This document shows, piece by piece, positions 14,445 through 52,472 of a stretch of 64,000 bases of DNA. The translations under genes were made by a program, and so were the position numbers. Each line of letters starts with the position of its first letter. Within the stretch, counting starts at the first letter, position 1. The notes under the pieces are model-generated. The model did no database searches and was not told the DNA's origin. It worked only from the letters and a program-made list of their open reading frames with translations. The DNA is from Limisphaerales bacterium (lineage in GTDB: Bacteria > Verrucomicrobiota > Verrucomicrobiia > Limisphaerales > SXQI01), in assembly GCA_044226545.1 (NCBI GenBank), contig JBGAGW010000003.1:431823-495822 (forward strand), given 5' to 3'.

Positions 14445-15620
14445 ATGAGTTCTCGTAACAAATTTGCTGCGTATCCGCGGCTGAATCCTCTCGGAATTGG
14501 AAAGAACATCTCCGCTGCGGACCTGATCGATGAAGCTTTTCTTGCCTACAACGGCGGACGGCTCCGCGAGGCGGCCAAACTCCTGACCGAAAAGATGCTG
14601 CCGAAAGATGGGTTCATCGGGATGAGTTTGACGGGCGCACTCACTCCGGCAGGACTCGGCAAGTCGTGCCTTATTCCGTTGATGAAGGCAGGATTTGTGG
14701 ATTGGATCGTTTCGACCGGAGCGAATCTTTATCACGATCTTCATTACGGGTTGAACATGGAGCTGTATGCCGGCTCGCCCTTTTTGGACGACGTGGCGCT
14801 GCACAAGGATGGGGTAATCCGGATTTACGACATTCTTTTCGATTATAATGTGCTCCTGGATACCGACGCGTTCGTCCGCGAAGTGATTGCCGGCCCGGAA
14901 TTTCAGAAGGCGATGGGGACAGACGAGTTTCACTATCTGCTCGGGAAATATGTTTCGGAACGCGGGAAGAAATTGAAACTAAAGGATTCCTCGGTGCTGG
15001 CCACGGCCTATGAGTGCGGCGTCCCGATCTTCACGAGCAGCCCGGGCGACAGTTCGATAGGAATGAATGTCGCCGCGATGGCAATGCGCGAATCGAAATT
15101 GATCTTCGATGTGAATCGCGACGTGAATCAAACTGCCGCGATCGTTTACGAGGCGAAATCGAGCGGGCACACTTCGTCCGTTTTCATTTTAGGCGGCGGT
15201 TCACCCAAAAATTTCATGCTGCAAACCGAGCCGCAGATCCAGGAAGTCATGGGCATCCAGGAAAAGGGACATGATTATTTCCTCCAGGTCACCGACGCGC
15301 GTCCGGACACGGGCGGCTTGAGCGGCGCTACACCCGCAGAGGCAGTGAGCTGGGGGAAAGTCGATCCAAACACGCTGCCTGATTGCGTCGTTGCCTACGT
15401 CGATTCGACAGTCGCTCTGCCCTTGTTGACCGCTTACACACTCACGCGCCATAAACCCCGTCAGCAGAAACGATTGATCGATCGCCGTGACGAACTGCTG
15501 GACAAAGTGCGGGCAAAATACTTGAAGACCGGAACCGTCTCAAAGATTTTGACGAGTCGTAAGGTCGCAAAACGAGCGAGTACCGTTGGAATGAACAAAA
15601 CTTTGGAGCGGGACCGCTGA
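14445..15620 (+). CDS. Deoxyhypusine synthase family protein (bacterial DHS-like)
   Basis: [21 protein letters not shown]...[45 protein letters not shown] matches the DHS fold signature. There is a ~55-aa basic C-terminal extension. Confidence 0.85.
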
Positions 15621-24103: not shown

Positions 24104-25114
24104 CTAGCGCTTCACGAGTTTCCGTCGCAAAGCCGCGATCGAGGCCAATGCAGTTCCCAGCAGACCAAGGGTAGAGCCTGCGTCCGGAGCACCGGTGGGA
24201 GGGGGAGCTCCGGCTCCGACCATCGGCGCGACATCGTCCAGAAAATTTGCGAGAAACTTTGTAGAAATAAAGTTGCCAGCCTCGTCGATATCCTTAGTGC
24301 CGGAATAATCCACGAAGGTCAGGGAGCCTCCGTTCCCCGCGGCAAAAATGTGACCTTTGCCGTCAACTGATCCCTGGTCGAAACTTTGCCCGGGCACAAG
24401 TAGGGCACCAACGACCACCCAGCCATTCGGATCAGGATCGATTTGGGTCAGGTGGTCACCCTCCATCGCAATCAAGTTTCCCGAGAACGGATCAAACGCC
24501 ATGCCGTGCGCTATATCACTGTTCAATTTCCGTGTTGTCGTAAAGGTGGTTAAGTCGATTATGCCAACACCGACCGGACTCGCATAATAAGCCGTTCCAT
24601 CTGGTCCGAAGGTAATGGTTTGGATGTTCAAATCGTCCCCGTTGAGAGGGTGTGCCGTCCCGTTAGCAAAAGGTGTTAAAGGGATAGTCGCAACGCCAGA
24701 GGACTGATAGTGCATCGCATATGCCTGATTCCCCGCAGGATCCACGGCGAGGTGGAACGCTCCAATCCCGCCGGCGGTCTTGGTCGTGAAAGTTCCTGTG
24801 CCAGGATTCACCTTATGCACAGCATTTGCCTGCCCGCCAATAAGCAAATCGCCATCCGGCGCGAAAACGATCCCGTCTGCTCCACCCGTGGACGCAATGT
24901 TTTGCACATTGCCCAGTGTGAATGTAGTTCCGTCATAATCGTATGCGACCTTGTTAACGTTTTGGCCGCCGTTATATGTGGTGAAGAACAAATCTCCAGA
25001 GGTCGGGTCGGCCTTTGCATTGGCAAGATTAAGCAAGGCGATTATCACCGCTGCTAAAGAGGCCTTAGGGAAGGCGCTCCTTCGCGACATTCTTTTAGCA
25101 ATCATTTGGTCCAT
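24104..25114 (-). CDS. Secreted beta-propeller-like protein with a PEP-CTERM sorting tail
   Basis: It has a signal peptide (..MSRRSAFPKASLAAVIIALLNLANAKA). The C-terminus GAPDAGSTLGLLGTALASIAALRRKLVKR has the PEP-CTERM architecture: motif, TM helix, then a basic tail. Three in-frame ATGs (25114, 25105, 25090) are possible starts. Confidence 0.75.
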   Translation of the reverse strand: MDQMIAKRMSRRSAFPKASLAAVIIALLNLANAKADPTSGDLFFTTYNGGQNVNKVAYDYDGTTFTLGNVQNIASTGGADGIVFAPDGDLLIGGQANAVHKVNPGTGTFTTKTAGGIGAFHLAVDPAGNQAYAMHYQSSGVATIPLTPFANGTAHPLNGDDLNIQTITFGPDGTAYYASPVGVGIIDLTTFTTTRKLNSDIAHGMAFDPFSGNLIAMEGDHLTQIDPDPNGWVVVGALLVPGQSFDQGSVDGKGHIFAAGNGGSLTFVDYSGTKDIDEAGNFISTKFLANFLDDVAPMVGAGAPPPTGAPDAGSTLGLLGTALASIAALRRKLVKR

Positions 25115-25487
25115 ATATTGTATCTGTTTGGTTTGATTTCCTCCTTTTGAGCGTCCTTGCTCAAAAAGTATTCCCAACACCAGGCAGAGAAGTGCTGAAA
25201 CCGCTCCTTCGAGCAAACGCCGAGCCAAAATTAGGAGCGGCCAATGCTGCTGATGTTAGTGCTTCAGCTGCAATTGAATTGCGCTGAGCTTTGCGAGGAC
25301 GATGCTAGTCGGAGCCTGACAGGCTAAGACATTATTGTAAATCTATTTACCAAATTACTCTCGCGAATGGCGAAGGAGGAATCGCCCAGTTCCGAAGTTT
25401 GCCCCCCGATTAGCTAATCTTGTTCCGCAAACGGCGCGATGCATCGTGAGAAATTCAAAAAAGATCAAGAAAAAGTCGTTGACGCCG

Positions 25488-27662: not shown

Positions 27663-28562
27663 ATGAAACCGGCCCTCTTTACGTACCCTTATGTAGCATC
27701 GTACTCTACCATGATGTTACTCGGCTTTGTCGCCGGTTGGTGGCTGGCCCGCCGACGCGCCCCCCTCTTCGGCATGGCGCCGAAGCACATGGACAATATC
27801 GGACTGATCCTGCCACTGGCGGGACTTTTCGGCGCACGGTTTTTCGCCCGCCTTTTCTACGCAAAAGTTCCATTCGTTGAAGCGCTGAAATTCTGGGAAG
27901 GCGATGGTCTGGTTTTCTACGGCGGTTTTTTATTCTGCATCGCGGCCATTTTGATTTATGGCGCAGTTCGCAAACTAAATCTGGTGAAGCTGTGTGACTG
28001 CCTCGCACCGAGTGCGGCTGTCGGCCTGGCTTTCGGACGCGTCGGGTGTTTTCTCGGCGGCTGCTGCTGGGGAGATCTCTGCGTGGATAGCGCAACACTC
28101 TCCCGGATCGACCGTGATGTGGCCCAGCAAATCCACACCGTGCCGGCGATTTCCCGGGACAATTGGTTTATGGCCGTCCGTTTCCCGCCGAAGAGCGAAC
28201 CGTTCAAGCAGCAGGTAAAGCTCGGATTAATCAGCGCCAACGCCGAAATATCGCTCCCGGTCCATCCGGTGCAGTTGTACGAAGCGGTCCTCGCCGGATT
28301 GGTCGCCTGGTTACTGCACCGGCGGTTTCGCCCCGGCGAAACTGGAGGCGCCTCGTTAGGTTTGCTCGCGGGCTATGCCGTGGTTCGCTTTTTGACCGAG
28401 TATTTACGGGCAGATAATAAGCCCTATGCATTGGGGCTCACCATTTCTCAGGTCATTTCGGTGGAGATTTTCTTGTTTTGCGGAGCGGCGCTCATCATCG
28501 GACAACTGATACGAAAAAAGGACGAGCCGCGCCGCGTGGTTGGCCAGACGATAACCGCCTGA
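27663..28562 (+). CDS. lgt: Prolipoprotein diacylglyceryl transferase, paralog 1 (with insertion)
   Basis: The call rests on YSTMMLLGFVAGWWLARRRA..., GLVFYGGFLF, GRVGCFLGGCCWG and HPVQLYEAVL. A ~45-aa insert lies between the GCCWG and HPVQLYE motifs. Confidence 0.9.
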   Translation: MKPALFTYPYVASYSTMMLLGFVAGWWLARRRAPLFGMAPKHMDNIGLILPLAGLFGARFFARLFYAKVPFVEALKFWEGDGLVFYGGFLFCIAAILIYGAVRKLNLVKLCDCLAPSAAVGLAFGRVGCFLGGCCWGDLCVDSATLSRIDRDVAQQIHTVPAISRDNWFMAVRFPPKSEPFKQQVKLGLISANAEISLPVHPVQLYEAVLAGLVAWLLHRRFRPGETGGASLGLLAGYAVVRFLTEYLRADNKPYALGLTISQVISVEIFLFCGAALIIGQLIRKKDEPRRVVGQTITA

Positions 28563-34065: not shown

Positions 34066-35730
34066 TTACTTGGATTTCACCGCGAGGCTGAAGATGCCGT
34101 CCAAAACTGTCGGAGAATTCAGAATAAGAGGGAAATTTTTGCGCAAAGCCGGCCTGGTACTCACAGTCATACTGGCACCGACCACCCCTGTGCCTTTAAC
34201 CTTAAAGTGTGTCCAGAATCCCGGCGGGACGGCGTCTGAAGCCCTAAAGGTTATCTCTACTTCATTTTTACCTTCCTGCACTTCGCTGTTTTCGAGTGTA
34301 ATCCCTGCGACGGGCGGCTCGATCTTAAAACTAATCTTCCCGGTGTAGTCGTAACGGACACAGGTAATCCTCAATTTCGCCGTCCCGCCCGGAACCAGTT
34401 CCACCCGGTTCTCTTCAGAAGCGGCAGTGAAACCACTTTCGAATCGCGCCGCCTTGATTCGGTAAGGGAGGTTGGAGCAATCCTGAGTCCCGCTTAGTTC
34501 CCGCACCTCCAAATAATAGTCCCCCGCTCCGTCGAACTTGTTTGTCACGGCCGCGTCGCCCGGCAGCGTCGGATCGCTTTTCGCGACGGTCTTTCCCTCG
34601 GCGTTCTTAATGGCGAGCACGAGATCGCAAGGGGAACCGAGGGAGCGAGTCGCACTTTGGAAAATCAATTTCTCCTCTTTGGCGGCGGCGAACCGATAAA
34701 AATCCTTGTCGCTCCCGCAATTTATTTTTCCATTCAAAATCGCCGGCAGAAAAAGCGATTGGGCTTGAGCTGGTGAATCGTTAACTTCCACTTCTCCCAA
34801 CGTCGGGATCGTAAACAGCAGGGGACCGTTCACAGGATTAGCAGGTGAACCAGCCTCGCTTCGATATGTCTCGCTTCCAAATGGCTCGAAGGCAGCGCCT
34901 GTCTCGCCCGGATCAAACAGCGGGTAGGTAAACCAAATCAGCGGCTCGTGAGTCACACGAAGCCGATAATCGTAGCTTGTTCCACCACCATAACCGGCGT
35001 CATGTACCGACAGCGTGTAATCTCCCGTCGATGGAGCGTTAAACACAAAACGCGAGTCGCGCCACACCCCTGGTTCATCATCGCACATCACCAGTTCACG
35101 CCCGTCTGTGTCGAGCACATGGACCACAGGATCCATTTCCGAGCCCATCCGATGCGCAATGGCTTCGATTGAAAATCGTTCGCCTGCCTTCGCGTTGAAA
35201 ACGTAGTAGTCGATCTTCTCCGATTTCAGAATGCAATCGACCGCTGCGGGCGGCGTGATGCGATGGGCATTGGTGCGTGACTGATGATTGTCGCGGTGCG
35301 GTTGCGTTCGGAGCGCATCGATCAACACCAATTGATAATTCGAGGCGCCATCCGGCCCGGCAATCTGGAGTGCGTGAATGCCGCGAGCATTCTCCGGGCA
35401 GGCCACCTCGAAGCTGATCGTATCGGCGTTCAAACTCGTCACCCGGCGCGCCGTGCACTCGACGGAGCTCCAAAAATTACTCGAACTTTCCAGTGCCGAT
35501 CCCGAAAACGTCAGCACCATTTTCCTGCCGGGCACCAAGGCGTGCGGCGCAAAATGAGCGATCTCCGGTCCCGCTCGCAACCACACCGCTCCCGACAGAG
35601 CCGCGACCGTGAGGAAGCGCGCCGAACGGAAAAGCCTCCGACCGCAGCCGGTCCCCGACCGCAACGCGCACTCCCCACCGGCCACGTCCGACAGACTGGC
35701 GTCGCTCGGATTGCACCGAATCCTGTTCAC
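34066..35730 (-). CDS. Secreted protein with two pre-peptidase C-terminal (PPC)-like domains
   Basis: It has a signal-like RRLFRSARFLTVAALSGAVWLRAG. Two PPC-type modules are present: IDYYVFNAKAGERFSIEA...TGDYTLSVHD and DKDFYRFAAAKEEKLIFQS...AGDYYLEVRE. The GTG start overlaps the DUF1501 stop as GTGA at 35727-35730. Confidence 0.7.
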   Translation of the reverse strand: MNRIRCNPSDASLSDVAGGECALRSGTGCGRRLFRSARFLTVAALSGAVWLRAGPEIAHFAPHALVPGRKMVLTFSGSALESSSNFWSSVECTARRVTSLNADTISFEVACPENARGIHALQIAGPDGASNYQLVLIDALRTQPHRDNHQSRTNAHRITPPAAVDCILKSEKIDYYVFNAKAGERFSIEAIAHRMGSEMDPVVHVLDTDGRELVMCDDEPGVWRDSRFVFNAPSTGDYTLSVHDAGYGGGTSYDYRLRVTHEPLIWFTYPLFDPGETGAAFEPFGSETYRSEAGSPANPVNGPLLFTIPTLGEVEVNDSPAQAQSLFLPAILNGKINCGSDKDFYRFAAAKEEKLIFQSATRSLGSPCDLVLAIKNAEGKTVAKSDPTLPGDAAVTNKFDGAGDYYLEVRELSGTQDCSNLPYRIKAARFESGFTAASEENRVELVPGGTAKLRITCVRYDYTGKISFKIEPPVAGITLENSEVQEGKNEVEITFRASDAVPPGFWTHFKVKGTGVVGASMTVSTRPALRKNFPLILNSPTVLDGIFSLAVKSK

Positions 35731-37130
35731 GCGAAGATATCCATCACCGGATTACCGTCCGCGATTGCGACCGGCCGATTCCCCGCCCCCGGCACCTGCG
35801 TGTGCGGATCGATCCCGAGTGCGTAAAACATGGTCGCCGCCAAATCATCCGGGCGCACAGGATTTTCGGCGGGATAGGCGCCGTTTTTATCCGAAGCACC
35901 GTAAATGAATCCGCGTTTCACGCCGCCACCCGCCAGCAGCACGGTGTAACAATCCGGCCAATGATCGCGGCTCGCGTTTTCATTGATTTTGGGGGTGCGC
36001 CCGAATTCACCCATCCAGACGACGAGAGTCGAATCGAGCAGCCCTCGCTCGTCCATGTCTTCCAGGAACGTGGGCAGCGTTTGGTCCGTGATCGGCAGGT
36101 GATATTTCTCAATGATTGGATACATGCGGGTGTTGTTGAAACCATGCGTATCCCAGCCACCGCCCGTCGTACTCTGCCCGCCGATATTCCCCGAGAAATA
36201 GACCGTCACGAATTTGGTTCCAGCCTCGACCAACCGTCGTGCCAAAATCAAACTTTGGCCGTAGCTCGTCCGCCCATATTTTTCGCGTAAAGCTTCCGGT
36301 TCAGTCGAAAGATCAAACGCTTTCCGCAGCTTCTCCGAATGCAGCATGGTCAGCGCTTTGTCGTAGTAGGCATCCATCCCGCGCGCCGAGGCGGAGTAAT
36401 CAAGCAGCCGTGTTTGCGCATCGACCATCTTTTGCAACTCACGCCGCGCGGTCAGTCGCTCGTACGAGACAGTGGCCGGCAAACTCAGTTCCGGCAGCTT
36501 GAAGTCGGGGGCGTTTGGATCCTGCGTTACCAGGAAAGGATCATGCATCTTACCAAGGAAGCTCGCGTGCTGGCCGGGCGTGACCGCTCCATCCCGAATC
36601 ACGTAAGGATAGGAAATCGACGTGGGCATCTCGCCATCATTCGGAGCGAGCTTGTCAACCACGCTCGCATAGGCGGGAAACAGGTCGTTGCTATCCCGCA
36701 ATCGAATATCATCCACCGGCGGTGCATGCCCCGTGAGCGCATAGTACGCCGCCGAATTATGATTCTTCATGTTGTGATGCATGCTCCGGATCAGCGTTAC
36801 CTTATCCAGCACCTTCGCGGTGCGCGGCAACCCTTCACACACATGCACACCCGGCAAAACGCTCGGGATCCCTTTCAACGGCCCGCGAATTCCCTCCGGC
36901 GCATCGGGTTTCCGATCAAACATATCGACGTGACTCGGCCCGCCGAACTGGAACAGGAAGATGACCGATTTAGCTCTCGCGTTCGCGGAGGGTTTAAGTG
37001 CCTCGGCCCGTAAAACCTTCGGCATCGTCAATCCGAGCAAACCCATTCCACCGACCTTTAACAAATGCCGTCGCGAAAAGCCAAGATTCGCAAAGCCAGC
37101 ACAACAGGATGATGGGCGAACGGGTTTCAC
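35727..37130 (-). CDS. DUF1501 domain protein (sulfatase-fold, Tat signal)
   Basis: It has a Tat-like SRRHLLKVGGMGLLGL, followed by FQFGGPSHVDMFDRKPDAPEGIRGP...IRSMHHNMKNH...WDTHG. The start is uncertain: GTG 37128-37130 gives MKPVRPSSCCAGF..., while the ORF maximum at 37256 would overlap the divergent lgt. Confidence 0.9.
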   Translation of the reverse strand: MKPVRPSSCCAGFANLGFSRRHLLKVGGMGLLGLTMPKVLRAEALKPSANARAKSVIFLFQFGGPSHVDMFDRKPDAPEGIRGPLKGIPSVLPGVHVCEGLPRTAKVLDKVTLIRSMHHNMKNHNSAAYYALTGHAPPVDDIRLRDSNDLFPAYASVVDKLAPNDGEMPTSISYPYVIRDGAVTPGQHASFLGKMHDPFLVTQDPNAPDFKLPELSLPATVSYERLTARRELQKMVDAQTRLLDYSASARGMDAYYDKALTMLHSEKLRKAFDLSTEPEALREKYGRTSYGQSLILARRLVEAGTKFVTVYFSGNIGGQSTTGGGWDTHGFNNTRMYPIIEKYHLPITDQTLPTFLEDMDERGLLDSTLVVWMGEFGRTPKINENASRDHWPDCYTVLLAGGGVKRGFIYGASDKNGAYPAENPVRPDDLAATMFYALGIDPHTQVPGAGNRPVAIADGNPVMDIFA

Positions 37131-37240
37131 GACTGCGATCCTACTCTTTCGCCGAACGCGGGTAAAGCTCGCCGCGAAGTCGAACGGGGTTTTTCCCTCG
37201 CTTGTCATGCCTTCCGTCAGGCCGTAACTTCGTCTCTCCG

Positions 37241-38017
37241 GTGGATAACGTCGCATTCGAAATTTTCGGCTTTCAGATCTATTGGTACGGCATTTTGGCT
37301 GCCGCGGGTTTTCTCTTTGGGTTCGGCACGGCGAGCCGCCGCGCTCCGCGCGCGGGACTCAAAGGGGAGGACATCTACAATCTCGCACCATGGATCATCG
37401 TTGGGACAGTGATTGGCGCTCGCCTTCTTTACGTCATCTCATATTGGGACAAGGAATTCGCCGGGCAACCGCTCACGCACATTTTCAACATGCGCTCGGG
37501 GCTGGTTTATTACGGAGGGCTGATCGGCGCGTCTCTCGGGACGATTCTCTACACCCGGAAAGCGAAAGTGCCTCTCTGGCGGCTTGCTGACGTGATGGCT
37601 CCGAGTGTTCCGCTTGGCCACGCCTTCGGCCGGGTAGGCTGTTTCATGACCGGTTGTTGCTACGGTAAGGCGTGTAGTCTTCCCTGGGCGGTTCATTTTC
37701 CGAAGGAACATTGGACGCAGGGCATTGGCGTTCACCCGGTCCAGCTCTACGAGAGCGGCTTAAACCTGCTCTTTTACGCGCTGCTGGCCTGGCTTTTCCA
37801 AAGGCGAAAATTCGATGGCCAGATATTCGCCATTTACCTGATGGGTTACGCCATTCTTCGCGCCTTCACCGAGACGTTTCGCGGCGATTACACTCAGCAT
37901 TACCTGGGCGGAATTCTAACGCCCGGCCAGGCGGTGAGCATCCTCATTTTCGCTCTCGGAGTGGCTCTGTGGATCTGGCGTGCCCGTTTGCGAACACCGA
38001 AGCTCGCTCCCGCGTAG
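37241..38017 (+). CDS. lgt: Prolipoprotein diacylglyceryl transferase, paralog 2 (canonical length)
   Basis: The call rests on FEIFGFQIYWYGILAAAGFLFG, GLVYYGGLIGA, GRVGCFMTGCCYG and HPVQLYES. The start could be the GTG at 37241 or the TTG at 37202. Confidence 0.9.
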   Translation: MDNVAFEIFGFQIYWYGILAAAGFLFGFGTASRRAPRAGLKGEDIYNLAPWIIVGTVIGARLLYVISYWDKEFAGQPLTHIFNMRSGLVYYGGLIGASLGTILYTRKAKVPLWRLADVMAPSVPLGHAFGRVGCFMTGCCYGKACSLPWAVHFPKEHWTQGIGVHPVQLYESGLNLLFYALLAWLFQRRKFDGQIFAIYLMGYAILRAFTETFRGDYTQHYLGGILTPGQAVSILIFALGVALWIWRARLRTPKLAPA

Positions 38018-45869: not shown

Positions 45870-48800
45870 CTATTTTCGCACCAACCGATAGAACCGCGCA
45901 TGCCCCTGGGTCGGGCGTTGAACAGAATTGACCGAACCAGGATCAATCGTTGTCACAGCCGTCCACAACGGGTGCGCTAAATCGGACGTCTCCTCGAGAG
46001 TTGCGGCGGAAAAACCACGCCAGGAAATGATCACGTTCCCGGCTTGCATCGTGACAACGAGTTCCGGCTGGTTCTGGAACACGAGACACTCGCTGGTGGT
46101 GATGCTCGCGAATCTCAAATCGCTGTTCGCATTATCACGATAGCAGATCCGCGCCTGGCCATTTTCATCAATCGCGATAGAGGTGTAGGAGCCGATTAAA
46201 GTACTGGCGTCGACAGTCTGAATCGACCAGAACGCGCCATTCCAAACGGCATACTTCAGCGTGTTATTACCGAGATCGCGATAGCTGATGTGCGCACGGT
46301 CCGTCGTATCCAAAGCAAGCGAACAATCGAAACCAACGGCTCCGGCGCTGTCGACCACCTCGAGCCGCCAACCGGTCGTCGAACGCTGTGCGAACTTCAG
46401 ATCCGTGTTGGAACTATCGCGGTAAGCGATGCGCGGCTGGCCATCCTCGCCAATGCGCAGCGAACTGGAAAATCCAACTGAACCCTCGGAATCAACCGTT
46501 TCAACGAGCCATGTGCCTCCGTTCCATTCGGCGAATTTCAGATCGTTCAGCGTAGAGTCGCGATAACTGATCATCGGACGATCCTGCGCAGTCAACGCGA
46601 GAGAAGCATCATTCCCGGTTTTGTTCGTTGCGTCGACTGTTTGCACCTGCCATCCCGCTACGCCTTTTTGCGCGTAAAGCAGATCGCCGTTCGCCTCGTC
46701 CATAAAGGCGACCCGCGGAGTGCCATCGCGCGCCAGCTTCAACGAGCTGAAACTGCCGGCCGGTCCTACGGTTGGAATCGTTTCAATCTCCCAACTCGTT
46801 CCGTTCCACGCCGCGAATTTGAGGCGTTGTTGTGTTTCATCACGGTAGCAGATTCGCGGTTGACCTGATTCATTCAGTGCGATGGACGTATAGGTCCCAA
46901 CATTGCCCGTAACATCCACGGTTTCGATAGTCCAACCGTTCAGGGTCTGGCGCGCGTATTTCAGATCACCATTCGTCGTATCGTAATAACTGATGTGGGC
47001 CGCTCCCGCGGAGTCAAGCGCAAGCGAGCTGTAATTGCCCACCGATCCAGCACTGTCCACAGTCTCAAGTTTCCACAACGGCGCGGGCGGTCCAATTACC
47101 TGGCGAAAGCTGTTCGTGCGGCGAACTCCGTCGAGATCGCTTACCAGCTGAAATACAATTGTCGATCCGCACGGGACCTCTGGAGAAAGCGCGAAGGAGA
47201 CGGGAACATTCATTTCGCCATTCCCAGGAATTGCGACAGGAGTCTCAACGGCTGACGAAATGACTCCGAAGCTTGCGCTCACAACGTGCACCGTTCCGGC
47301 CAGCGGAGTTGAGTTCCCGTTATGCAAAGTGAGGCTTCCCGTGATGGTTTCCCCCGGTTCAACCGCACCGTTTCCGTTCCCACCGGCGGCATCGGAAAAA
47401 TTCAGAGTCCCGATCGAAATCGGATTAGCTGCTCCCGCTGAAGTTCCGTAAATCTGTAAATGGAGAGATTCAAGAACGCCGATGTCCCCCATTTTCAAAT
47501 CAGCTATACGCACGCGCCAGATGCCTTGAGAACTTTCGCCCCAATTACGAACGGTCATGAATTTCCACTCAACGTAATCAGAACCGGGATCATTGTGCTG
47601 TTCAGATAATCGACTTTCCATGCCGGAGGGCGAAATAAGCGTAATTGCAAGGTCGCCGCGGAACGGGTGAGTGATGCTTGCGCTGAGAGTGACATGCTCG
47701 ACCCGCAAATTCGTCTGCGAAATATCGAAATCCTGAGTAATTCCCTGTATATCGTTGTCCGGAATGGCCAACTCGAGATTCGTCTTCGCGACCGAGACAT
47801 TTGTCCACACTCCGAGGTTCTGCCAGGTTAGTGCGAGCTCGACAGCGCCATCCACGTTGAGCAATCCCGCGCCGTATTTGTGATTGAAATGCATGGCAGC
47901 GGCATTCACCGTCCAATCCAAATCGTGCTCATCCACGACCAACGCCGAGCGCATCAGAATCTCCTGCATGTCACGCCAGCCGAGGTTCGGGTTCGCACTT
48001 AATAAAAGAGCGACTGCGCCAGCAGCCTGCGGAACCGAGGCGGAAGTGCCGACAAAACTTTTTGTATAATCCAGGTCAGAATAATCGTCCGGACTTTCAA
48101 CCTTGTTGGCGCCGTCGGCGCCTTGAAGGTCAGTCGTGGTTATGCCGGGTCGGCCGAAACTACCACTGGGCGTGACCACCACAACGCAAGCGCCCGGTTC
48201 GCTGAAATCAGTCTGCAATCCCTGGTCGCTCACTGAACCCACGGCGATGGTGTAAATTGAATTCGCGTAGGCGTCGTAGTTCGCGTTGTCATGAACATCA
48301 AGCCCATTTCCAGCGGCCCAGACGTAGATTTCACCGTGGCCGTTTCGCCCCGAACGCACACCTTCCTCCAGAGCCGCCAAGGCCAGCGGTCCAGGTCCTT
48401 CGAGCGTCTTACCGTCATCCTCTGGGCCCCAGCTATTGCTCTTCACGTGGATTTGCTCATTCTTAAACAGAATTGCCTCCGACTCGGTCACGTCCGTGCT
48501 CGCGAGGCTGATCAGGCGGAGTCCCGCGATAGTCGCTTCGAAGGCGACGCCAGCCACCCCCACTCCATTGTCACCAATCGCCGCAGCCGCGCCGGCACAT
48601 TCCGTTCCGTGGAAATCACCTTTAAGCGGATGCGCCGTCGGATCGGCATCGCGCTCATTCCAATCGTATCCGAGCGCGGGATCGATATGCGCGGCCAAAT
48701 CCGGATGACTCGTGTCGATCCCGTCATCGACAACTCCGATAGCCACTCCTTTGCCCCGGTAATTGGTCCAGGTGTTGGTCAGATGCAGATCGATGCCAGC

Positions 48801-49277
48801 GCGCGCACCGCTTAAACCATGATTCACCAGGTTCCACTGATTAGTGAAGAGCGGATCATTAGGTAAAGACTTTCGGACTCGCTGCCTGGCCAAAATCGGT
48901 TCCGCGCTGATGACGGATGGATTCGCGCGCAGCTTTCCCAGAACTTCCAATGCGAGTTCCGCAGACGGAGCCTGAAAAATGTAATGGTCCTCGCGCAGCG
49001 GCGTTGCCCGAAAATGCGCAGCATCGACGGCCGCCGCCACGGAGGCGGGGTCGCTCCCCTTTTTGAGATGAACAAGAATATCTGTCGTAACCTGACGCGA
49101 GGTGGCATGCACTTTTCCCACCTCTCGCAGTTCGACTATCTCGCCACGACTCGGGCCAACGTGAAAGTGCCTTGGTTGCCCGCTCTCGAGTGCCCGAAGC
49201 GTTTGACCGCCAATCATGGGCACAGATGTCCCGAGAAGCAGCGCGATCAGGCCGAGACGTGGAAGCAAATAATTCAA
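45870..49277 (-). CDS. Secreted S8 (kexin/proprotein-convertase-like) serine peptidase with a P-domain, a 7-repeat propeller and an '...RFYRL' tail
   Basis: The catalytic triad contexts are VVDDGID, HGTECAG and GTSASVPQAAG. The P-domain is HPFRGDLAITLISPSGMESRL...WGESSQGIWRVRIAD. These are followed by seven 47-aa repeats and a C-terminal ...ISWRG...PLWTAV...ARFYRLVRK. Confidence 0.92.
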   Translation of the reverse strand: MNYLLPRLGLIALLLGTSVPMIGGQTLRALESGQPRHFHVGPSRGEIVELREVGKVHATSRQVTTDILVHLKKGSDPASVAAAVDAAHFRATPLREDHYIFQAPSAELALEVLGKLRANPSVISAEPILARQRVRKSLPNDPLFTNQWNLVNHGLSGARAGIDLHLTNTWTNYRGKGVAIGVVDDGIDTSHPDLAAHIDPALGYDWNERDADPTAHPLKGDFHGTECAGAAAAIGDNGVGVAGVAFEATIAGLRLISLASTDVTESEAILFKNEQIHVKSNSWGPEDDGKTLEGPGPLALAALEEGVRSGRNGHGEIYVWAAGNGLDVHDNANYDAYANSIYTIAVGSVSDQGLQTDFSEPGACVVVVTPSGSFGRPGITTTDLQGADGANKVESPDDYSDLDYTKSFVGTSASVPQAAGAVALLLSANPNLGWRDMQEILMRSALVVDEHDLDWTVNAAAMHFNHKYGAGLLNVDGAVELALTWQNLGVWTNVSVAKTNLELAIPDNDIQGITQDFDISQTNLRVEHVTLSASITHPFRGDLAITLISPSGMESRLSEQHNDPGSDYVEWKFMTVRNWGESSQGIWRVRIADLKMGDIGVLESLHLQIYGTSAGAANPISIGTLNFSDAAGGNGNGAVEPGETITGSLTLHNGNSTPLAGTVHVVSASFGVISSAVETPVAIPGNGEMNVPVSFALSPEVPCGSTIVFQLVSDLDGVRRTNSFRQVIGPPAPLWKLETVDSAGSVGNYSSLALDSAGAAHISYYDTTNGDLKYARQTLNGWTIETVDVTGNVGTYTSIALNESGQPRICYRDETQQRLKFAAWNGTSWEIETIPTVGPAGSFSSLKLARDGTPRVAFMDEANGDLLYAQKGVAGWQVQTVDATNKTGNDASLALTAQDRPMISYRDSTLNDLKFAEWNGGTWLVETVDSEGSVGFSSSLRIGEDGQPRIAYRDSSNTDLKFAQRSTTGWRLEVVDSAGAVGFDCSLALDTTDRAHISYRDLGNNTLKYAVWNGAFWSIQTVDASTLIGSYTSIAIDENGQARICYRDNANSDLRFASITTSECLVFQNQPELVVTMQAGNVIISWRGFSAATLEETSDLAHPLWTAVTTIDPGSVNSVQRPTQGHARFYRLVRK
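46083..47075 (-). repeat. Seven tandem ~141-bp (47-aa) coding repeats inside the S8 peptidase gene
   Basis: The unit consensus is W.(I/V)ETVD..G.VG.y.S(L/I)AL...G.P.I.YRD....DLKFA. The repeats read: VGNYSSLALDSAGAAHISYYD..., VGTYTSIALNESGQPRICYRD..., AGSFSSLKLARDGTPRVAFMD..., TGNDASLALTAQDRPMISYRD..., VGFSSSLRIGEDGQPRIAYRD..., VGFDCSLALDTTDRAHISYRD..., IGSYTSIAIDENGQARICYRD... Confidence 0.85.
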
Positions 49278-49304: not shown

Positions 49305-51086
49305 TCATGCCCACGCGGGCTTCGGCGCAGTGAAAGTCATACGCTGATGGGTGAGCGGATGGTTCAACTCAATCCGCCACGCGTGCAGACAAAGGGGCGC
49401 TTCTTCGGGACTCAGCGTCTGCTTCACGCCGCTCCCTGCAGTCGAATATATCGGGTCGCCACAGACGGGCCAACCAAGGGTGGCCAGATGCAATCGAATT
49501 TGGTTGGTCCGCCCTGTAATCGGGTACGCCTCCAGGAGCGTCGTCCCATCGTCGCGGCGTTCAACAACTCGAAATTCTGTGCGCGACGGCAATCCTTCCG
49601 AAGGATCAATTTCACGACTGCCGACCTCGCCAGGCTCGGCCGAAACGGGTGCGTCGCAGAAAAAGGAATCATTCGGCGGTGAGCCCGCGACGCGAACCAG
49701 ATAGGCCTTCTTGATCTCACCCCTCGAAAACTGTGGTTGAAGGCGAGAAGCAAAATGACGCGTGCGTGTGACCAGCACCAATCCTGTGGTGTTCGCATCC
49801 AAACGATGCGCCGGATGCGGTTTTTGCGGCCGGTACACTTCGTTGAGAATGTATTGAAGCGTGTTTCGATTGAAGCGACCGCCCGCGTGCATCGGCAGAG
49901 GCGCCGGCTTATGCAGGACGATCAACGCTTCGTCCTCGTGCAGAATCTCGATTTTCGCGTTTACCTCTGGCTCAACAATCGAGGGCAGTTTCTGGAAATA
50001 CCTTTCGCCGGCAGAGACACGATGATCGAGCGCGACCGTTTGTCGCTCTGGTCCGAGCAAGAGCCCTGCATCGCAAACCCGCTTCCATTCCGTTTCCGGA
50101 ATATGTTTGAGCGTGGCGGAGAGAAAGTCGATCAAGGTGAAACCGTCGCAGCGCGTGGGCACAGTTATCGGGCGACAATTATCGTACGCGATGCTGCCAG
50201 GCAGCGGCGTGGTGACTCGTCGAATCGCCTCGTGCCGCTCTGCAATGTTCAAGGCCATTTGTTCCATTGAAGTGCGGAAACAGTACGGACACGATTTTCC
50301 CGCAACGTAACGAGGATCACCCTGTTCCGCCTCGGTGAGCGGCGTAAGGCATTTGAAACATTGAGTGCTCTCAGTTTCGTGGAGTGTGGGATCCACTCCC
50401 ACGCGCTGATCGAAGACGAAACACTCTCCTTCGTAATGAGCACCGCCGCATACCTCGAAATACTTCAGTATTCCGCCGTCCAACTGGAAGATGTTTTTGA
50501 ACCCTTCCCTCTCCATGAACGGCCCGGCCTTTTCGCAGCGAATTCCGCCCGTGCAGAACATAACGATGGGCTGCTCCTTCATCTCCGGCGGAAGTTTTCG
50601 CACTGCTTCGGGAAAGTTTCGGAAGTTCTGGATGCCAATCGGCAGCGCGTTCTTGAACGTCCCCAGCTTCACCTCGTAGTCGTTTCGCGTATCAAGCAGC
50701 GTTACGGGACGCCCTTGGTCGAGCCATTGCTTCAACGTCTGTGCGGGCAGTTTCGGGGAAGTTCGCCTGGCTGGATCGATTCCGGGAACGCCGAAAGCGA
50801 TGATCTCTTTTTTGATTCGCACCAGCATCCGATTGAACGGTTGATGATCCGTTTCGCTCACCTTCGGCTCGAGTTCCTCGAGGCCCGGGATCGCACGCAA
50901 TTCAGCCAGTAATTGATCGATCTCCTCTGGTCCACCCGCTACAAAGAGGTTTATCCCCTCGGTGCTGATGAGAATCGTTCCTTTCAGTCGAAGGCGCCGG
51001 GTGAGCCCAAGCAAATGTGCGCGCAGTTCTTTGAGCTCTATAAGCGGCGCGAACTTGTAAGCGGCAATGTTGCGGATGGTTGTCAT
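49305..51086 (-). CDS. Fusion protein: TrhO/YceA-like rhodanese domain (UPF0176) + RluA-family pseudouridine synthase
   Basis: The N-terminal half has IAAYKF...ILISTEGINLFVAG...LLDTRNDYEVKLGTF...VMFCTGGIRCEKAG...LDGGILKYF...ECFVFDQRVGV plus a CxxC..CxxC cluster. The C-terminal half has LHKPAPLPMH...HRLDANTTGLVLV...TGRTNQIRLHLA. The true ATG is at 51084-51086 (MTTIRNIAAYKF). Confidence 0.85.
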   Translation of the reverse strand: MTTIRNIAAYKFAPLIELKELRAHLLGLTRRLRLKGTILISTEGINLFVAGGPEEIDQLLAELRAIPGLEELEPKVSETDHQPFNRMLVRIKKEIIAFGVPGIDPARRTSPKLPAQTLKQWLDQGRPVTLLDTRNDYEVKLGTFKNALPIGIQNFRNFPEAVRKLPPEMKEQPIVMFCTGGIRCEKAGPFMEREGFKNIFQLDGGILKYFEVCGGAHYEGECFVFDQRVGVDPTLHETESTQCFKCLTPLTEAEQGDPRYVAGKSCPYCFRTSMEQMALNIAERHEAIRRVTTPLPGSIAYDNCRPITVPTRCDGFTLIDFLSATLKHIPETEWKRVCDAGLLLGPERQTVALDHRVSAGERYFQKLPSIVEPEVNAKIEILHEDEALIVLHKPAPLPMHAGGRFNRNTLQYILNEVYRPQKPHPAHRLDANTTGLVLVTRTRHFASRLQPQFSRGEIKKAYLVRVAGSPPNDSFFCDAPVSAEPGEVGSREIDPSEGLPSRTEFRVVERRDDGTTLLEAYPITGRTNQIRLHLATLGWPVCGDPIYSTAGSGVKQTLSPEEAPLCLHAWRIELNHPLTHQRMTFTAPKPAWA

Positions 51087-51161
51087 CAGCGAAAAATTAC
51101 AAGATAACCAGAAATCACTCGCTTTCGAGAGGGAATCTGCGCAAAACGCAAGTAACCTGAT

Positions 51162-51836
51162 TTGCCTCGGAGCGGTCTTGATTGTGCGGTGAACACGGAT
51201 AGAGACATCGTCCTGATTGGAAACGGCCCGCTTTCCCAACAACTTCCTCCCGAACTTGTTGCGCGGGCGTTTGTCATCCGTTTTAACGTGCCCCGCCGCC
51301 ACCCACCGGAATTCGGGGAAAAATGTGACGCGCTTTGCGTGACCAATCACGGCAATCCGGGCCGCCATATCGCGAAAGAGCGCGCGTTGCTGAACAGCAA
51401 GTATATCACACCGCACACTGAGATTTGGATTCCGCGTCCGCGCTTTCGCAGCTCATTGGGTTGCCTCTGGAACCATCCGATCCGGAAGACCCGGTGGACA
51501 CTTGACCATGCGCATCACATCATTCGCCGGAACAAACTTCACCTCAACACAGTGGTTCTTTTTTCAGAACAACTCTGGCGGGAGGCTTTCGGCATGCTCG
51601 GTCTGGACGCAACGCAAATCGAAGTTTCGCCAAGCTCTGGCTTTCTCGCTCTGGTTTACGTTCTGCAACGTTTTCCGCCAGAACTGTACAAGATACACCT
51701 GAGCGGATTTACTTTCGAAGGCAGTGCCGCGCATCCATGGAAACTGGAAAAAGCGGCGGCCGAAAAGCTGGCCAACTCAGGAATCCTCAAAGTTTGGGAC
51801 ACCCAACCCAATCAATCGAGCCGAGCGACAGCTTGA
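51162..51836 (+). CDS. Putative glycosyltransferase with sialyltransferase-like (GT29/GT42-like) motifs
   Basis: The L-like motif is IVLIGNGPLS...FVIRFN...EFGEKCDALCV. The S-like motif is PSSGFLALVYVLQRF...LSGF. The VS-like motif is HPWKLE (H-x4-E). The assignment rests on motif resemblance only. Confidence 0.5.
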   Translation: MPRSGLDCAVNTDRDIVLIGNGPLSQQLPPELVARAFVIRFNVPRRHPPEFGEKCDALCVTNHGNPGRHIAKERALLNSKYITPHTEIWIPRPRFRSSLGCLWNHPIRKTRWTLDHAHHIIRRNKLHLNTVVLFSEQLWREAFGMLGLDATQIEVSPSSGFLALVYVLQRFPPELYKIHLSGFTFEGSAAHPWKLEKAAAEKLANSGILKVWDTQPNQSSRATA

Positions 51837-52472
51837 TCAAGGGTTGATACAGCGCACCGCCCGCCAGAGGACAGAGATCGGCTCGCACGTTTCAATTTCA
51901 ACCCCTGCTTCACGCATCAATTTGCGGAGGTTGAGATCGGTTTTGAAGCCCAATCGATAGCAGATGGGAGAATAAAGCTTCTCCACGAAACCGAAAAACG
52001 GATTCTCGCTCTGGAAATGATTCAGGAACACAAGGTACCCGCCCGGCTTGCACACCCTTTTCATTTCCTTTACCACCGCGACCGGGTCCGGCACCGTTGA
52101 AATGAAATAAGCGGCAAAAACCCGATCAAAACTGGCATCTGGAAATTCCAGCTTCGTTGCGTCCATCTTCTGCAGCTTGATGTTCCGCAGGCGCAACTCT
52201 TTGGCGCGCTCATGCGCCTTTTCGAGCATTCCTTGCGAGAGATCTATGCCGGTGAAATCAATGTTCCGAGGCAACAACGGCAAGGAAAGTCCCGTGCCGA
52301 TCCCTACCTCCAGAAGCTTGGCGCCGGGGTAAAGATCCAATAATTCAGGCCCGAGTTCCCGTCCGCTTTGAAAGACTTTGCCGAAGAGGAAATCGTAAAC
52401 CCCTGAGTAGGTGTTGTACACCCTCTCCATGTATTCCACGCTCATACCATGTTTGCAGGCTGCAAAAGACAT
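51837..52472 (-). CDS. Class I SAM-dependent methyltransferase (PmtA-like)
   Basis: Motif I is LLEVGIGTGLSL, followed by GIDLSQGMLEKA and KPGGYLVFLNH. Confidence 0.85.
   Translation of the reverse strand: MSFAACKHGMSVEYMERVYNTYSGVYDFLFGKVFQSGRELGPELLDLYPGAKLLEVGIGTGLSLPLLPRNIDFTGIDLSQGMLEKAHERAKELRLRNIKLQKMDATKLEFPDASFDRVFAAYFISTVPDPVAVVKEMKRVCKPGGYLVFLNHFQSENPFFGFVEKLYSPICYRLGFKTDLNLRKLMREAGVEIETCEPISVLWRAVRCINP

What the first reader, a model, noticed from the sequence alone, without database searches (positions are those of the whole stretch)
51162..51836. Small bacterial protein carrying sialyltransferase L, S and VS-like motifs
The 224-aa product aligns by eye with the hallmark sialyl-motifs of GT29 enzymes, and with the GNGPS...R(C/F)N pattern of bacterial GT42 Cst enzymes. 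The L-like motif is IVLIGNGPLS-x15-FVIRFN-x7-EFGEKCDALCV. The S-like motif is PSSGFLALVYVLQRF..LYKIHLSGF. The VS-like motif is HPWKLE (H-x4-E). It has no TM or stem region and is shorter than known catalytic domains. It lies between the TrhO-RluA gene and a SAM methyltransferase, away from any obvious capsule, LOS or CMP-sialic-acid genes.
Basis: inference. Interest (0 to 1): 0.55.

Follow-up and report, generated by a model that had tools for sequence, protein, structure and literature searches.

The report
Minimal bacterial sialyltransferase-like (GT29-type) glycosyltransferase
This gene encodes a very small, soluble bacterial relative of animal sialyltransferases that keeps three of their four hallmark motifs and their fold; it belongs to a widespread but biochemically untested family, so it is a real but only moderately novel find.

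Summary
The ORF at 51162-51836 (+) is real. Its likely start is the GTG at 51189, giving 215 aa. Pfam, NCBIfam and PDB sequence searches with the protein alone find nothing. A profile of its five close homologues recovers about 450 clusters of stand-alone proteins of about 200 aa. Of 138 sampled members, 79 hit Pfam PF00777 (GT29) and no other family. The family profile hits only GT29 sialyltransferases in the PDB (E = 1e-8). hhalign against human ST6Gal-I (93.5 %, E = 2e-7) aligns RFN with N212, PSSG with S322/S323, and H191-x4-E196 with the catalytic VS motif H370-x4-E375. An AlphaFold model (pLDDT 90) matches only GT29 and GT42 structures (Foldseek probability 1.0, TM 0.5-0.62). Motif III and the lid loop are missing: a 7-residue linker replaces them. 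There is no TM segment, stem or disulfide pair.

I read it as a cytoplasmic, metal-independent, inverting transferase of a CMP-activated keto-deoxy sugar acid (Kdo or a nonulosonate). Donor and acceptor are unknown. The window holds no glycan or CMP-sugar genes. Relatives sit in glycosyltransferase operons or, oddly, inside rhizobial urease operons. Bacterial GT29-like proteins are already published and auto-annotated, and none has been characterised.

The parts
51162..51836 (+). Coding sequence of the mini GT29-like protein. It is 224 aa from the TTG at 51162, or 215 aa from the more likely GTG start at 51189. The stop is TGA at 51834-51836.
   Evidence: ORF list. Homologue alignments place the N-terminus a few residues before VLIGNG. 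The protein scores 185 bits (E = 7.5e-53) against a family profile built without its own clade.
51207..51341 (+). Sialyl-motif L equivalent (residues 16-60): beta-strand IVLIGNGP, then FVIRFN, then G52..C55-D56-A57-L58-C59-V60. This is the predicted CMP-sugar binding half of the Rossmann-like core.
   Evidence: HMMER and hhalign align it to the L motif of ST3Gal-I, ST6Gal-I and ST6GalNAc-II; RFN42 aligns with LRFN212 of ST6Gal-I. G20, N21, R40, F41 and N42 are invariant. The clade has lost the family's near-invariant Asp (D36 to A) and Thr (T55 to C).
51630..51710 (+). Sialyl-motif S equivalent (residues 157-183): PSSG, a helix, then the strand IHLSGF.
   Evidence: Aligned to PSSG (321-324) of ST6Gal-I and PSTG of ST3Gal-I. 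P157, S158, G160, G182 and F183 are invariant in 120 sequences.
51711..51731 (+). Seven-residue linker (TFEGSAA) in the place where canonical GT29 enzymes carry motif III and a 20-45-residue loop, and where Cst-II carries its lid.
   Evidence: hhalign opens a 19-residue gap opposite the YYYQ region of ST6Gal-I and an 11-residue gap opposite a published bacterial GT29. Of 129 family members, 115 have exactly 7 residues here.
51732..51749 (+). Sialyl-motif VS equivalent, H191-P-W-K-L-E196. H191 is the predicted catalytic base. It sits at the N-terminus of the last helix.
   Evidence: Aligned to H370PLLYE375 of human ST6Gal-I and to SHNFQRE of Pseudovibrio GT29. H and E are invariant in the family. 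DSSP on the model places the last helix directly after the His.
51093..51188 (.). Divergent intergenic region shared with the TrhO/RluA fusion gene. It is the presumed promoter region, but no signal was identified.
   Evidence: Gene coordinates. The sigma-70 and terminator scans gave nothing above the shuffles.
51837..52472 (-). Convergent class I SAM methyltransferase whose stop codon abuts the GT29-like gene. This is context only, and a functional link is not shown.
   Evidence: Pfam Methyltransf_11/25 and UbiE. The same convergent neighbour is present in the 80 %-identical relative P0002. It is absent next to the more distant clade members L001, L005 and P0173.

Best explanation
The gene encodes a soluble, cytoplasmic, minimal member of the sialyltransferase (GT29) lineage. 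It is a single Rossmann-like, modified GT-A domain of about 200 residues. It keeps the L motif (GNG...RFN), the S motif (PSSG...GF) and the VS motif (H-x4-E). It has lost motif III, the lid loop, the membrane anchor and stem, and the disulfide cysteines.

Shown: homology and fold.

Inferred mechanism: like GT29 and GT42 enzymes, it binds a CMP-activated 2-keto-3-deoxy sugar acid (CMP-Kdo or a CMP-nonulosonate) without a metal or a DXD motif. N21, N42 and the S158-S159-G160 turn would hold the CMP and phosphate. H191 would act as the general base that deprotonates an acceptor hydroxyl for an inverting, single-displacement transfer.

Inferred role: capping or branching a cell-surface glycan (LPS core, O-antigen or capsule) on the cytoplasmic face of the membrane. 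CMP-Kdo is my first guess for the donor, because Kdo is universal in Gram-negative envelopes. Acceptor and donor are unknown.
For: Family link:
- A profile of the window protein plus 5 close homologues finds 449 representative clusters, almost all 195-240 aa.
- The window protein scores E = 7.5e-53 against a family profile that excludes its own clade.

GT29 link:
- 79 of 138 members hit Pfam PF00777 at E <= 0.01 (best 1.8e-10) and no other family. Some exceed the gathering score.
- The family profile hits only ST3Gal-I, ST6Gal-I, ST6GalNAc-II and ST8Sia-III in the PDB (8.8e-9 to 3e-4).
- hhalign against human ST6Gal-I (sequence verified identical to 4js1) gives 93.5 %, E = 2.4e-7 over 162 columns, with the L, S and VS motifs in register.
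- hhalign against a published bacterial GT29 (Pseudovibrio) gives 82 %, E = 1e-5.

Fold:
- The AF2 model has pLDDT 90.4 and pTM 0.88.
- The top 23 Foldseek PDB hits are all GT29 or GT42 sialyltransferases (probability 1.00, TMq 0.50-0.62). The next hits have TM of about 0.3.
- BFVD top hits are viral sialyltransferases and GT29 proteins.

Active-site retention: all motif residues are invariant, including H191 and E196.

Glycan role in relatives:
- Fusion to a GT2 domain in P0064.
- greA-GT4-GT25-X-pyruvyltransferase in Mesorhizobium and in a second contig.
- X-GT25-deacetylase in Brucella intermedia.
- GT4-X-GT8-GT2.
- Next to an ABC-2 polysaccharide exporter and GT2 genes.
- The 48 %-identical clade member P0173 follows a GT2 gene and faces a SIS+CBS (KpsF/KdsD-type, Kdo pathway) gene.

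GT29 enzymes can use CMP-Kdo: there is genetic evidence for plant RCKT1 (PMC11288761).
Against: - No glycosyltransferase, CMP-sugar synthetase or sugar-acid synthase gene lies anywhere in the 64-kb window.
- Context is not conserved within the window's own clade.
- The protein itself gives no Pfam, NCBIfam or PDB sequence hit, even at E <= 10.
- Motif III, which helps hold the phosphate in GT29 enzymes (my recollection of the literature), and the lid are absent.
- The clade has replaced three residues that are nearly invariant in the rest of the family: D36A in the L motif, T55C and W188S.
- Many sequenced relatives sit inside rhizobial urease operons (five such loci were seen), where a glycan role is not obvious. 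One relative follows an ATP-synthase operon.
- My literature searches found no biochemically characterised bacterial GT29-like protein.
Confidence: 0.6

Rival explanations
1. It has the sialyltransferase fold but is not a glycan-building enzyme. It could be a CMP- or nucleotide-binding accessory or regulatory protein, or a transferase acting on a non-glycan acceptor. This is suggested by relatives embedded in urease operons and named 'Urease operon accessory protein'.
For: Family members lie between ureB/LprI and ureC in Rhizobium and related contigs, and NCBI and UniRef name them accordingly. Another member directly follows the ATP-synthase operon. The window gene itself lies among housekeeping genes with no glycan genes in 64 kb. 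Motif III and the lid are missing.
Against: The catalytic VS His and Glu and every CMP-sugar-binding motif residue are invariant across the family, including the urease-operon members. That pattern fits an active enzyme of the sialyltransferase type. Other members are fused to GT2 or sit in overlapping operons with GT4, GT25 and GT8 genes. 'Urease operon accessory protein' is a positional name, and my searches found no experimental support for it. The window contains no ure genes.
Confidence: 0.2
2. It is a member of the bacterial GT42 family (Campylobacter Cst-I/Cst-II, Haemophilus Lic3A type) rather than the GT29 lineage.
For: The N-terminus GNGPLS...RFN resembles GNGPSL...RCN of Cst-II. Foldseek hits Cst-II structures with probability 1.00 and TMq 0.50-0.56. 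Both are soluble bacterial proteins without a membrane anchor.
Against: hhalign of the family against the verified Cst-II sequence gives only 12.9 % probability and aligns only the L motif. None of the 138 members hits the GT42 Pfam model, whereas 79 hit GT29. The PDB profile search finds GT29 chains only. The Cst-II lid segment with Tyr156 and Tyr162 has no counterpart (7-residue linker).
Confidence: 0.05
3. It belongs to the DUF115/MAF/MptE-like group. These are motility-associated nonulosonate transferases or 6-hydroxymethylpterin diphosphokinase-like proteins that share a GxGPS-type Rossmann core.
For: A weaker fold resemblance exists. In BFVD an MptE-like protein appears at rank 16 (E = 6.5e-3, TMq 0.44) and a DUF115 protein at rank 28. 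Thiamin pyrophosphokinases appear at TM of about 0.3 in the PDB.
Against: No member of the family hits any Pfam model other than PF00777. All of these fold hits rank below the GT29 and GT42 hits. The S and VS motifs align specifically with GT29.
Confidence: 0.03
4. The ORF is a chance open frame and the motifs are coincidental.
For: It has a TTG/GTG start, no recognisable promoter or terminator, and no direct database hit for the single sequence.
Against: Full-length homologues exist at 45-84 % identity, along with hundreds of more distant ones. The substitution pattern is codon-level synonymous. The motif pattern never occurs in the shuffles. The predicted fold is confident.
Confidence: 0.01

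Closest known systems
Eukaryotic and viral GT29 sialyltransferases (human ST6GalNAc-II 6APL, pig ST3Gal-I 2WNB, human ST6Gal-I 4JS1/6QVS; Pfam PF00777)
   Same: They share the modified GT-A fold (Foldseek probability 1.0, TMq up to 0.62). The L, S and VS motifs are in register, with H191 aligned to the ST6Gal-I VS His370, which I recall from the literature as the catalytic base. Neither has a DXD motif.
   Different: The window protein is 215 aa, against catalytic domains of about 270-320 aa. Motif III and the loop around it are deleted. It has no TM anchor or stem and no equivalent of the conserved L/S disulfide. The protein itself is below Pfam detection. It is cytoplasmic and bacterial.
Bacterial GT29 sialyltransferase-like sequences reported by Petit et al. 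2018 (PMC5811610; 23 sequences, 19 of them alpha-proteobacterial, e.g. Pseudovibrio WP_063320029.1)
   Same: They are soluble bacterial proteins with sialyl-motifs and lack the TM segment and conserved cysteines. hhalign of the family against the Pseudovibrio sequence gives 82 %, E = 1e-5, with the VS His aligned. None has been characterised biochemically.
   Different: The published sequences I inspected retain a motif III segment and a longer S-to-VS spacing. This family has a fixed 7-residue linker. The window protein comes from a different phylum, probably Verrucomicrobiota, judged from its nearest genomic relative.
Campylobacter jejuni Cst-II (GT42, 1RO7)
   Same: It is a soluble bacterial enzyme with the same fold class (TMq 0.50-0.56), the GNGP(S/L) and R(C/F)N motifs, and a PxSG turn. 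Its catalytic His (His188, from my recollection of the literature) also directly precedes the last helix.
   Different: There is no detectable profile similarity beyond the L motif. Cst-II has a lid of about 30 residues with Tyr156 and Tyr162 and a C-terminal membrane-association/tetramerisation region, both absent here.
Plant GT29 'sialyltransferase-like' proteins, e.g. Arabidopsis RCKT1/MGP2 (PMC11288761)
   Same: They are GT29-lineage proteins in organisms without sialic acid. They are inferred to use CMP-beta-Kdo, which shows that the fold is not restricted to sialic acid donors.
   Different: The plant proteins are Golgi type II membrane proteins of normal GT29 size. I made no direct sequence comparison with them here.
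Rhizobial 'Urease operon accessory protein' (the gene of about 207-212 aa between ureB/LprI and ureC; as I recall it, orf207 of the R. leguminosarum ure cluster)
   Same: It belongs to the same protein family, with 22-28 % identity over more than 85 % of the length and the same invariant motifs and 7-residue linker.
   Different: The window has no urease genes. The window clade differs at D36, T55 and W188. The function of the rhizobial gene is itself unknown.

Membership tests
GT29 (CAZy) / Pfam PF00777 Glyco_transf_29 | Sialyl-motif L (strand-GN.G ... D.V.R.N ... G.K/T..) | tested here: met
   IVLIGNGP...FVIRFN...GEKCD aligns to the L motif of ST3Gal-I and ST6Gal-I. G20, N21, R40 and N42 are invariant. 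The inner Asp is replaced by Ala in this clade.
GT29 (CAZy) / Pfam PF00777 Glyco_transf_29 | Sialyl-motif S (P-S-[ST]-G ... G-F) | tested here: met
   P157-S-S-G160...G182-F183 aligns to PSSG321-324 of ST6Gal-I and PSTG of ST3Gal-I. It is invariant in the family.
GT29 (CAZy) / Pfam PF00777 Glyco_transf_29 | Sialyl-motif III ((H/Y)-Y-(Y/F/W/H)-(E/D/Q/G)) between S and VS | tested here: not met
   Only 7 residues (TFEGSAA) separate GF from the VS His. hhalign opens a 19-residue gap opposite YYYQ354 of ST6Gal-I. 115 of 129 family members have the same 7-residue spacing. According to PMC5811610 some plant GT29 members also lack motif III.
GT29 (CAZy) / Pfam PF00777 Glyco_transf_29 | Sialyl-motif VS (H-x4-E, catalytic His) | tested here: met
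   H191PWKLE196 aligns to H370PLLYE375 of ST6Gal-I and to SHNFQRE of a bacterial GT29. H and E are invariant.
GT29 (CAZy) / Pfam PF00777 Glyco_transf_29 | Modified GT-A (variant 2) fold of solved sialyltransferases | tested here: met
   AF2 model with pLDDT 90.4. Foldseek PDB ranks 1-23 are all GT29 or GT42 sialyltransferases, probability 1.00, TMq 0.50-0.62. The shallow-alignment model gave the same result.
GT29 (CAZy) / Pfam PF00777 Glyco_transf_29 | Match to the Pfam model above its gathering score | tested here: not met
   The window protein has 0 Pfam hits at E <= 10. Membership is only transitive: 79 of 138 relatives hit PF00777 at E <= 0.01, and a few exceed the 23-bit cut-off, e.g. P0069 at 26.7 and P0061 at 26.3.
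GT29 (CAZy) / Pfam PF00777 Glyco_transf_29 | Type II membrane topology with stem, and the conserved disulfide between motifs L and S (eukaryotic members) | tested here: not met
   Maximum 19-residue hydropathy is 1.13, and the protein starts 4-15 residues before the first core strand. The published bacterial GT29-like sequences also lack these features (PMC5811610).
GT29 (CAZy) / Pfam PF00777 Glyco_transf_29 | Inverting transfer from a CMP-activated sialic or ulosonic acid | not testable with these tools
   This needs biochemistry. No CMP-sugar pathway gene lies in the window.
GT42 (Cst-I/Cst-II/Lic3A) | Sequence or profile similarity to GT42 enzymes | tested here: not met
   hhalign of the family against the verified Cst-II sequence gives probability 12.9 %, with 43 columns of the L motif only. 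No GT42 Pfam hit in 138 members. No GT42 chain in the PDB profile search.
GT42 (Cst-I/Cst-II/Lic3A) | Fold similarity, and GNGPS / RCN / PTSG motifs | tested here: met
   Foldseek hits 1ro7, 1ro8, 2x61-63 and 2wqq at E = 1e-4 to 1.6e-3, TMq 0.50-0.56. GNGPLS, RFN and PSSG are present.
GT42 (Cst-I/Cst-II/Lic3A) | Lid segment between the S-like strand and the catalytic His (Cst-II residues ~155-188, with Tyr156 and Tyr162) | tested here: not met
   The corresponding segment is 7 residues long.
DUF115 / MAF_flag10 / MptE-like (PF01973) | Match to the family model | tested here: not met
   0 of 138 family members hit any Pfam family other than PF00777 at E <= 0.01. MptE-like and DUF115 viral models rank below all GT29 hits in BFVD.
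Rhizobial 'Urease operon accessory protein' subgroup | Location between ureB/LprI and ureC in a ure operon | tested here: not met
   There are no urease genes in the window. This context is seen only in L002, L003, L006, L010 and L012.

The most novel reading that the evidence does not exclude
The 7-residue-linker, roughly 200-aa proteins form a distinct and never-described minimal branch of the sialyltransferase lineage. The branch has about 450 clusters at 50 % identity. It is found in Alphaproteobacteria and Verrucomicrobiota, and phages carry similarly small GT29-like proteins. Under this reading it works without motif III or a lid. Either it uses a CMP-activated acid other than sialic acid (e.g. 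Kdo), or, in the urease-operon members, it has been recruited to a non-glycan task. It could then represent the stripped-down ancestral core from which eukaryotic GT29 enzymes were elaborated.
Probability: 0.25. Interest if true: 0.65.

Novelty: new variant of a known kind. Interest (0 to 1): 0.4.

Why it matters
GT29 sialyltransferases are central to animal cell-surface biology. Their origin has been traced tentatively to alpha-proteobacteria (PMC5811610), yet my literature searches found no bacterial GT29-like protein that has been assayed.

A soluble, cysteine-poor, 200-residue version with only the L, S and VS motifs would be the simplest experimental model of this catalytic core. It could show which parts of the eukaryotic enzymes are dispensable. 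It might also supply an easily expressed enzyme for adding Kdo or nonulosonic acids to glycans.

The family's unexplained residence inside rhizobial urease operons is a separate small puzzle.

For annotation, the result shows that a protein invisible to Pfam and NCBIfam can still be placed confidently by profile and fold transitivity.

Tried and rejected
- Direct Pfam, NCBIfam and PDB phmmer searches with the single protein gave nothing, even at E <= 10.
- The genome-contig scan with clade patterns found only one locus, a Verrucomicrobiales MAG.
- The metagenome-contig scan found one 1.8-kb contig.
- The viral-contig scan with the 138-sequence alignment could not be run, because the alignment has no conserved 7-10-column stretch.
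- hhalign against Cst-II was weak, so GT42 membership was dropped.
- Lead: the Mesorhizobium GT25-X pair might equal R. leguminosarum lpcA-lpcB (the distal CMP-Kdo transferase). No homologue of that subgroup carries an LpcB name, and the 1998 JBC paper is not held. The lead is unsupported and not pursued further.
- Lead: X might equal Sinorhizobium LpsC, LpsD or LpsE at the greA-lpsB locus. Rejected, because those proteins are 270, 343 and 340 aa and are described as type 1 glycosyltransferases.
- A. baumannii KdoT is GT-B and therefore irrelevant.
- The C-terminal domain of about 480 aa in fusion proteins P0084 and P0089 has no PDB sequence hit. It has only a sub-threshold TIGR04396 hit.
- The promoter and terminator scan gave nothing above the shuffles.
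- dN/dS could not be computed because dS is saturated.
- NCBIfam has no model for any subgroup of the family.
Full report
**Observation.** The window contains a 224-aa ORF at 51162-51836 on the + strand.
- Homologues begin only a few residues before the VLIGNG strand. The in-frame GTG at 51189 (215 aa) is therefore a better start than the TTG at 51162.
- The ordered motif set occurs once in the six-frame translation. It never occurs in 200 shuffles of the 117 ORFs of at least 150 aa.
- Compared with two relatives whose DNA I hold (L001, L005), 57-61 % of the conserved residues use different codons and dS is saturated. Conservation is therefore at the protein level.
- There is no hydrophobic segment (maximum KD19 = 1.13). 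GC content is like that of the surroundings.

**Finding relatives.** The single sequence hits nothing in Pfam, NCBIfam or the PDB sequence set, even at E <= 10.
- The 5.8-billion-protein index holds only five close relatives. They share 45-84 % identity, are about 220 aa long, and are metagenomic hypothetical proteins.
- A profile of these six sequences, searched exhaustively, finds 449 representative clusters at E <= 1e-3 and 206 at E <= 1e-10. Nearly all are stand-alone proteins of 195-240 aa.
- All of them carry G-N-[GA]-P, R-F-N, P-S-[ST]-G and H-x-W-x-x-E.
- A profile built from 132 of them, without the window clade, scores the window protein at 185 bits, E = 7.5e-53.

**Link to sialyltransferases.**
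- Of 138 members scanned one by one, 79 hit Pfam PF00777 (Glyco_transf_29) at E <= 0.01 (best 1.8e-10). No other Pfam family is hit. A few members exceed the gathering score.
- The family profile searched against all PDB sequences finds only GT29 enzymes: pig ST3Gal-I at 8.8e-9, human ST6Gal-I at 3e-8, ST6GalNAc-II at 1.5e-7 and ST8Sia-III at 2.4e-4.
hhalign of the family against its catalytic domain gives 93.5 % probability, E = 2.4e-7, over 162 columns. RFN42 aligns with LRFN212, P157SSG with P321SSG, and H191PWKLE196 with H370PLLYE375. That last segment is the VS motif, whose His I recall from the literature as the catalytic base of ST6Gal-I.
- A published bacterial GT29 sequence (Pseudovibrio, from the supplement of PMC5811610) aligns at 82 %, E = 1e-5, with the same His in register.
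- Cst-II (GT42, sequence verified) aligns only through the L motif, at 12.9 %.

**Fold.**
- A first AlphaFold model from six sequences (pLDDT 75) already matched only ST6GalNAc-II and Cst-II.
- A second model from 120 sequences has pLDDT 90.4 and pTM 0.88. Its top 23 Foldseek PDB hits are all ST6GalNAc-II, ST3Gal-I, ST6Gal-I or Cst-II (probability 1.00, E = 6e-5 to 5e-3, TMq 0.50-0.62). Everything after that has TM of about 0.3.
- Against viral models, the best hits are herpesvirus and poxvirus sialyltransferases and giant-virus and phage 'GT29' proteins, some only 170-222 aa long. MptE-like and DUF115 models rank lower.

**Anatomy.** The protein is essentially the bare nucleotide-sugar-binding core.
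- It retains the L motif, the S motif and the VS His-Glu pair at the start of the last helix.
- Between the S-motif strand (GF) and the VS His there are only seven residues. Canonical GT29 enzymes carry motif III plus a loop there, and Cst-II carries its lid. hhalign opens a 19-residue gap at that point. The seven-residue spacing is found in 115 of 129 family members.
- The published bacterial GT29 sequences that I inspected keep a motif III segment.
- There is no anchor, stem or disulfide pair.
- Within the family, the window's clade is set apart by D36A (the inner Asp of the L motif, 97 % Asp elsewhere), T55C and W188S. Every predicted catalytic or donor-binding residue is kept.

**Context.** In the window the gene is divergent from a TrhO-like/RluA-like fusion gene and convergent with a SAM methyltransferase. 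Pfam scans of the likely genes across the whole 64 kb found transporters, peptidases, regulators, RecQ, a porin and similar, but no glycosyltransferase or sugar-acid pathway gene.

Contexts within the window's own clade:

| Relative | Identity to window | Neighbours |
|---|---|---|
| P0002 | 80 % | same convergent methyltransferase |
| L005 | 56 % | downstream of what looks like the C-terminal end of a methionine synthase (by eye from the ORF translation; not searched) |
| L001 (Verrucomicrobiales MAG) | 53 % | between a small unannotated ORF and what looks like a response-regulator gene (by eye; not searched) |
| P0173 | 48 % | follows a GT2 gene and faces a SIS+CBS (KpsF/KdsD-type) gene |

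Contexts further out in the family:

| Context | Locus or organism |
|---|---|
| greA-GT4-GT25-X-pyruvyltransferase-lrp | Mesorhizobium and a second contig |
| X-GT25-polysaccharide deacetylase | Brucella intermedia |
| GT4-X-GT8-(methyltransferase)-GT2 | L007 |
| ABC-2 exporter plus GT2 genes | L008 |
| downstream of the ATP-synthase operon | L009 |
| between ureB/LprI and ureC inside urease operons | Rhizobium and relatives |

Domain fusions exist with GT2, with a Methyltransf_24 domain, and with an unassigned C-terminal domain of about 480 aa.

**Mechanism.** Homology and fold are shown; the rest is inferred. By analogy with GT29 and GT42 enzymes, the protein should bind a CMP-activated 2-keto-3-deoxy acid sugar without a metal. 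The GNG and RFN asparagines and the PSSG turn would hold the nucleotide and phosphate. H191 would act as general base for an inverting transfer.
- The repeated pairing with GT25 enzymes recalls the galactosyltransferase-plus-sialyltransferase pairs of Haemophilus and Neisseria lipooligosaccharide. GT25 enzymes are, to my knowledge, LPS/LOS galactosyl- or glucosyltransferases. The pairing suggests a capping role on an LPS core or polysaccharide.
- The donor is open. CMP-Kdo is my first guess. Kdo is universal in Gram-negative bacteria, one clade member sits beside a KpsF-type gene, and a plant GT29 member is a genetically supported CMP-Kdo transferase (PMC11288761). A nonulosonate is equally compatible with the data.

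**Rivals.**
- A non-glycan role is the only serious rival. It rests on the urease-operon and housekeeping contexts and on the lost motif III. I give it 0.2.
- GT42 membership, DUF115/MAF membership and a chance ORF are each contradicted by direct tests.

**What is already known.** Bacterial GT29 sialyltransferase-like sequences were reported in 2018: 23 sequences, mostly alpha-proteobacterial, without TM segments or conserved cysteines, and none assayed (PMC5811610). NCBI already names relatives 'glycosyltransferase family 29 protein' or 'Urease operon accessory protein'. The L001 orthologue MDB6037746.1 from a Verrucomicrobiales MAG is named 'glycosyltransferase 29 family protein'. The kind is therefore known.

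**What is new.**
- The compact short-linker architecture without motif III is shared by hundreds of clusters and undescribed in the papers I could search.
- A clade divergent enough to escape Pfam and NCBIfam occurs in what is probably a verrucomicrobial genome. That assignment is inferred from the nearest relative and from VPDSG-CTERM and DUF1501 proteins in the window.

I rate it a new variant of a known kind, of moderate interest.

Noticed in passing
window 49305-51092 (-): A single 595-aa ORF joins a TrhO-like module (UPF0176_N plus rhodanese) to an RluA-type pseudouridine synthase domain. This would be an unusual fusion of two RNA-modification enzymes. It is the divergent neighbour of the GT29-like gene.
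   Followed up: partly
L002/L003 8001-8639, L006 8001-8660, L010 6001-6624, L012 2399-3004: Members of the same GT29-like family sit inside urease operons of Rhizobium and relatives, in the order ureD-ureA-(DUF1272)-ureB-LprI-X-ureC-DUF2459-ureE-ureF-ureG. Databases name them 'Urease operon accessory protein'. I found no explanation for a sialyltransferase-fold protein in a urease operon.
   Followed up: partly
L004 7273-8651, L011 8273-9633, L013 7001-8589: One subgroup of the family is repeatedly paired with a GT25 glycosyltransferase gene, in either order and with overlapping stop and start codons in two loci. In Mesorhizobium the pair lies at the greA-lpsB LPS-core locus.
   Followed up: partly
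proteins P0064, P0069, P0077, P0084, P0089 (not in the window): Multidomain relatives exist: GT2 + X, Methyltransf_24 + X, and X plus a C-terminal domain of about 480 aa. That C-terminal domain has no Pfam or PDB sequence match and only a sub-threshold TIGR04396 'surface carbohydrate biosynthesis protein' hit.
   Followed up: partly
contig of P0173 (no DNA held), genes at 319-2183 and 8768-10453: The 61.8-kb contig carrying the 48 %-identical relative has a second 'GT2 followed by a 210-aa protein with no Pfam hit' pair 7 kb from the first. This may be a paralogous GT2-X module.
   Followed up: no
window 45870-49277 (-): A 1135-aa S8 subtilase has a proprotein-convertase P-domain. Its C-terminal half consists of several (about 8 by eye) repeats of the form '...G.Y.S.ALD..G.P.I.Y.D....LKYA...', which looks like a beta-propeller.
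   Followed up: no
window 24104-25228 (-), 35727-37256 (-), 27663-28562 (+), 37202-38017 (+): A protein ending in a VPDSG-CTERM sorting signal and a DUF1501 protein suggest, from my recollection of where these families occur, a Verrucomicrobiota/Planctomycetota-type genome. Two prolipoprotein diacylglyceryl transferase (Lgt) paralogues lie 9 kb apart.
   Followed up: no
window 14445-15620 (+): A bacterial homologue of deoxyhypusine synthase (Pfam DS, E = 1.7e-69).
   Followed up: no
BFVD hits A0A8S5UAA1, A0A516M7H5, A0A5B8IFN6, A0A6J5NLG3: Phage and giant-virus proteins, some only 170-222 aa long, match the model as GT29-like. Comparably small versions of this fold are therefore also carried by viruses.
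   Followed up: no
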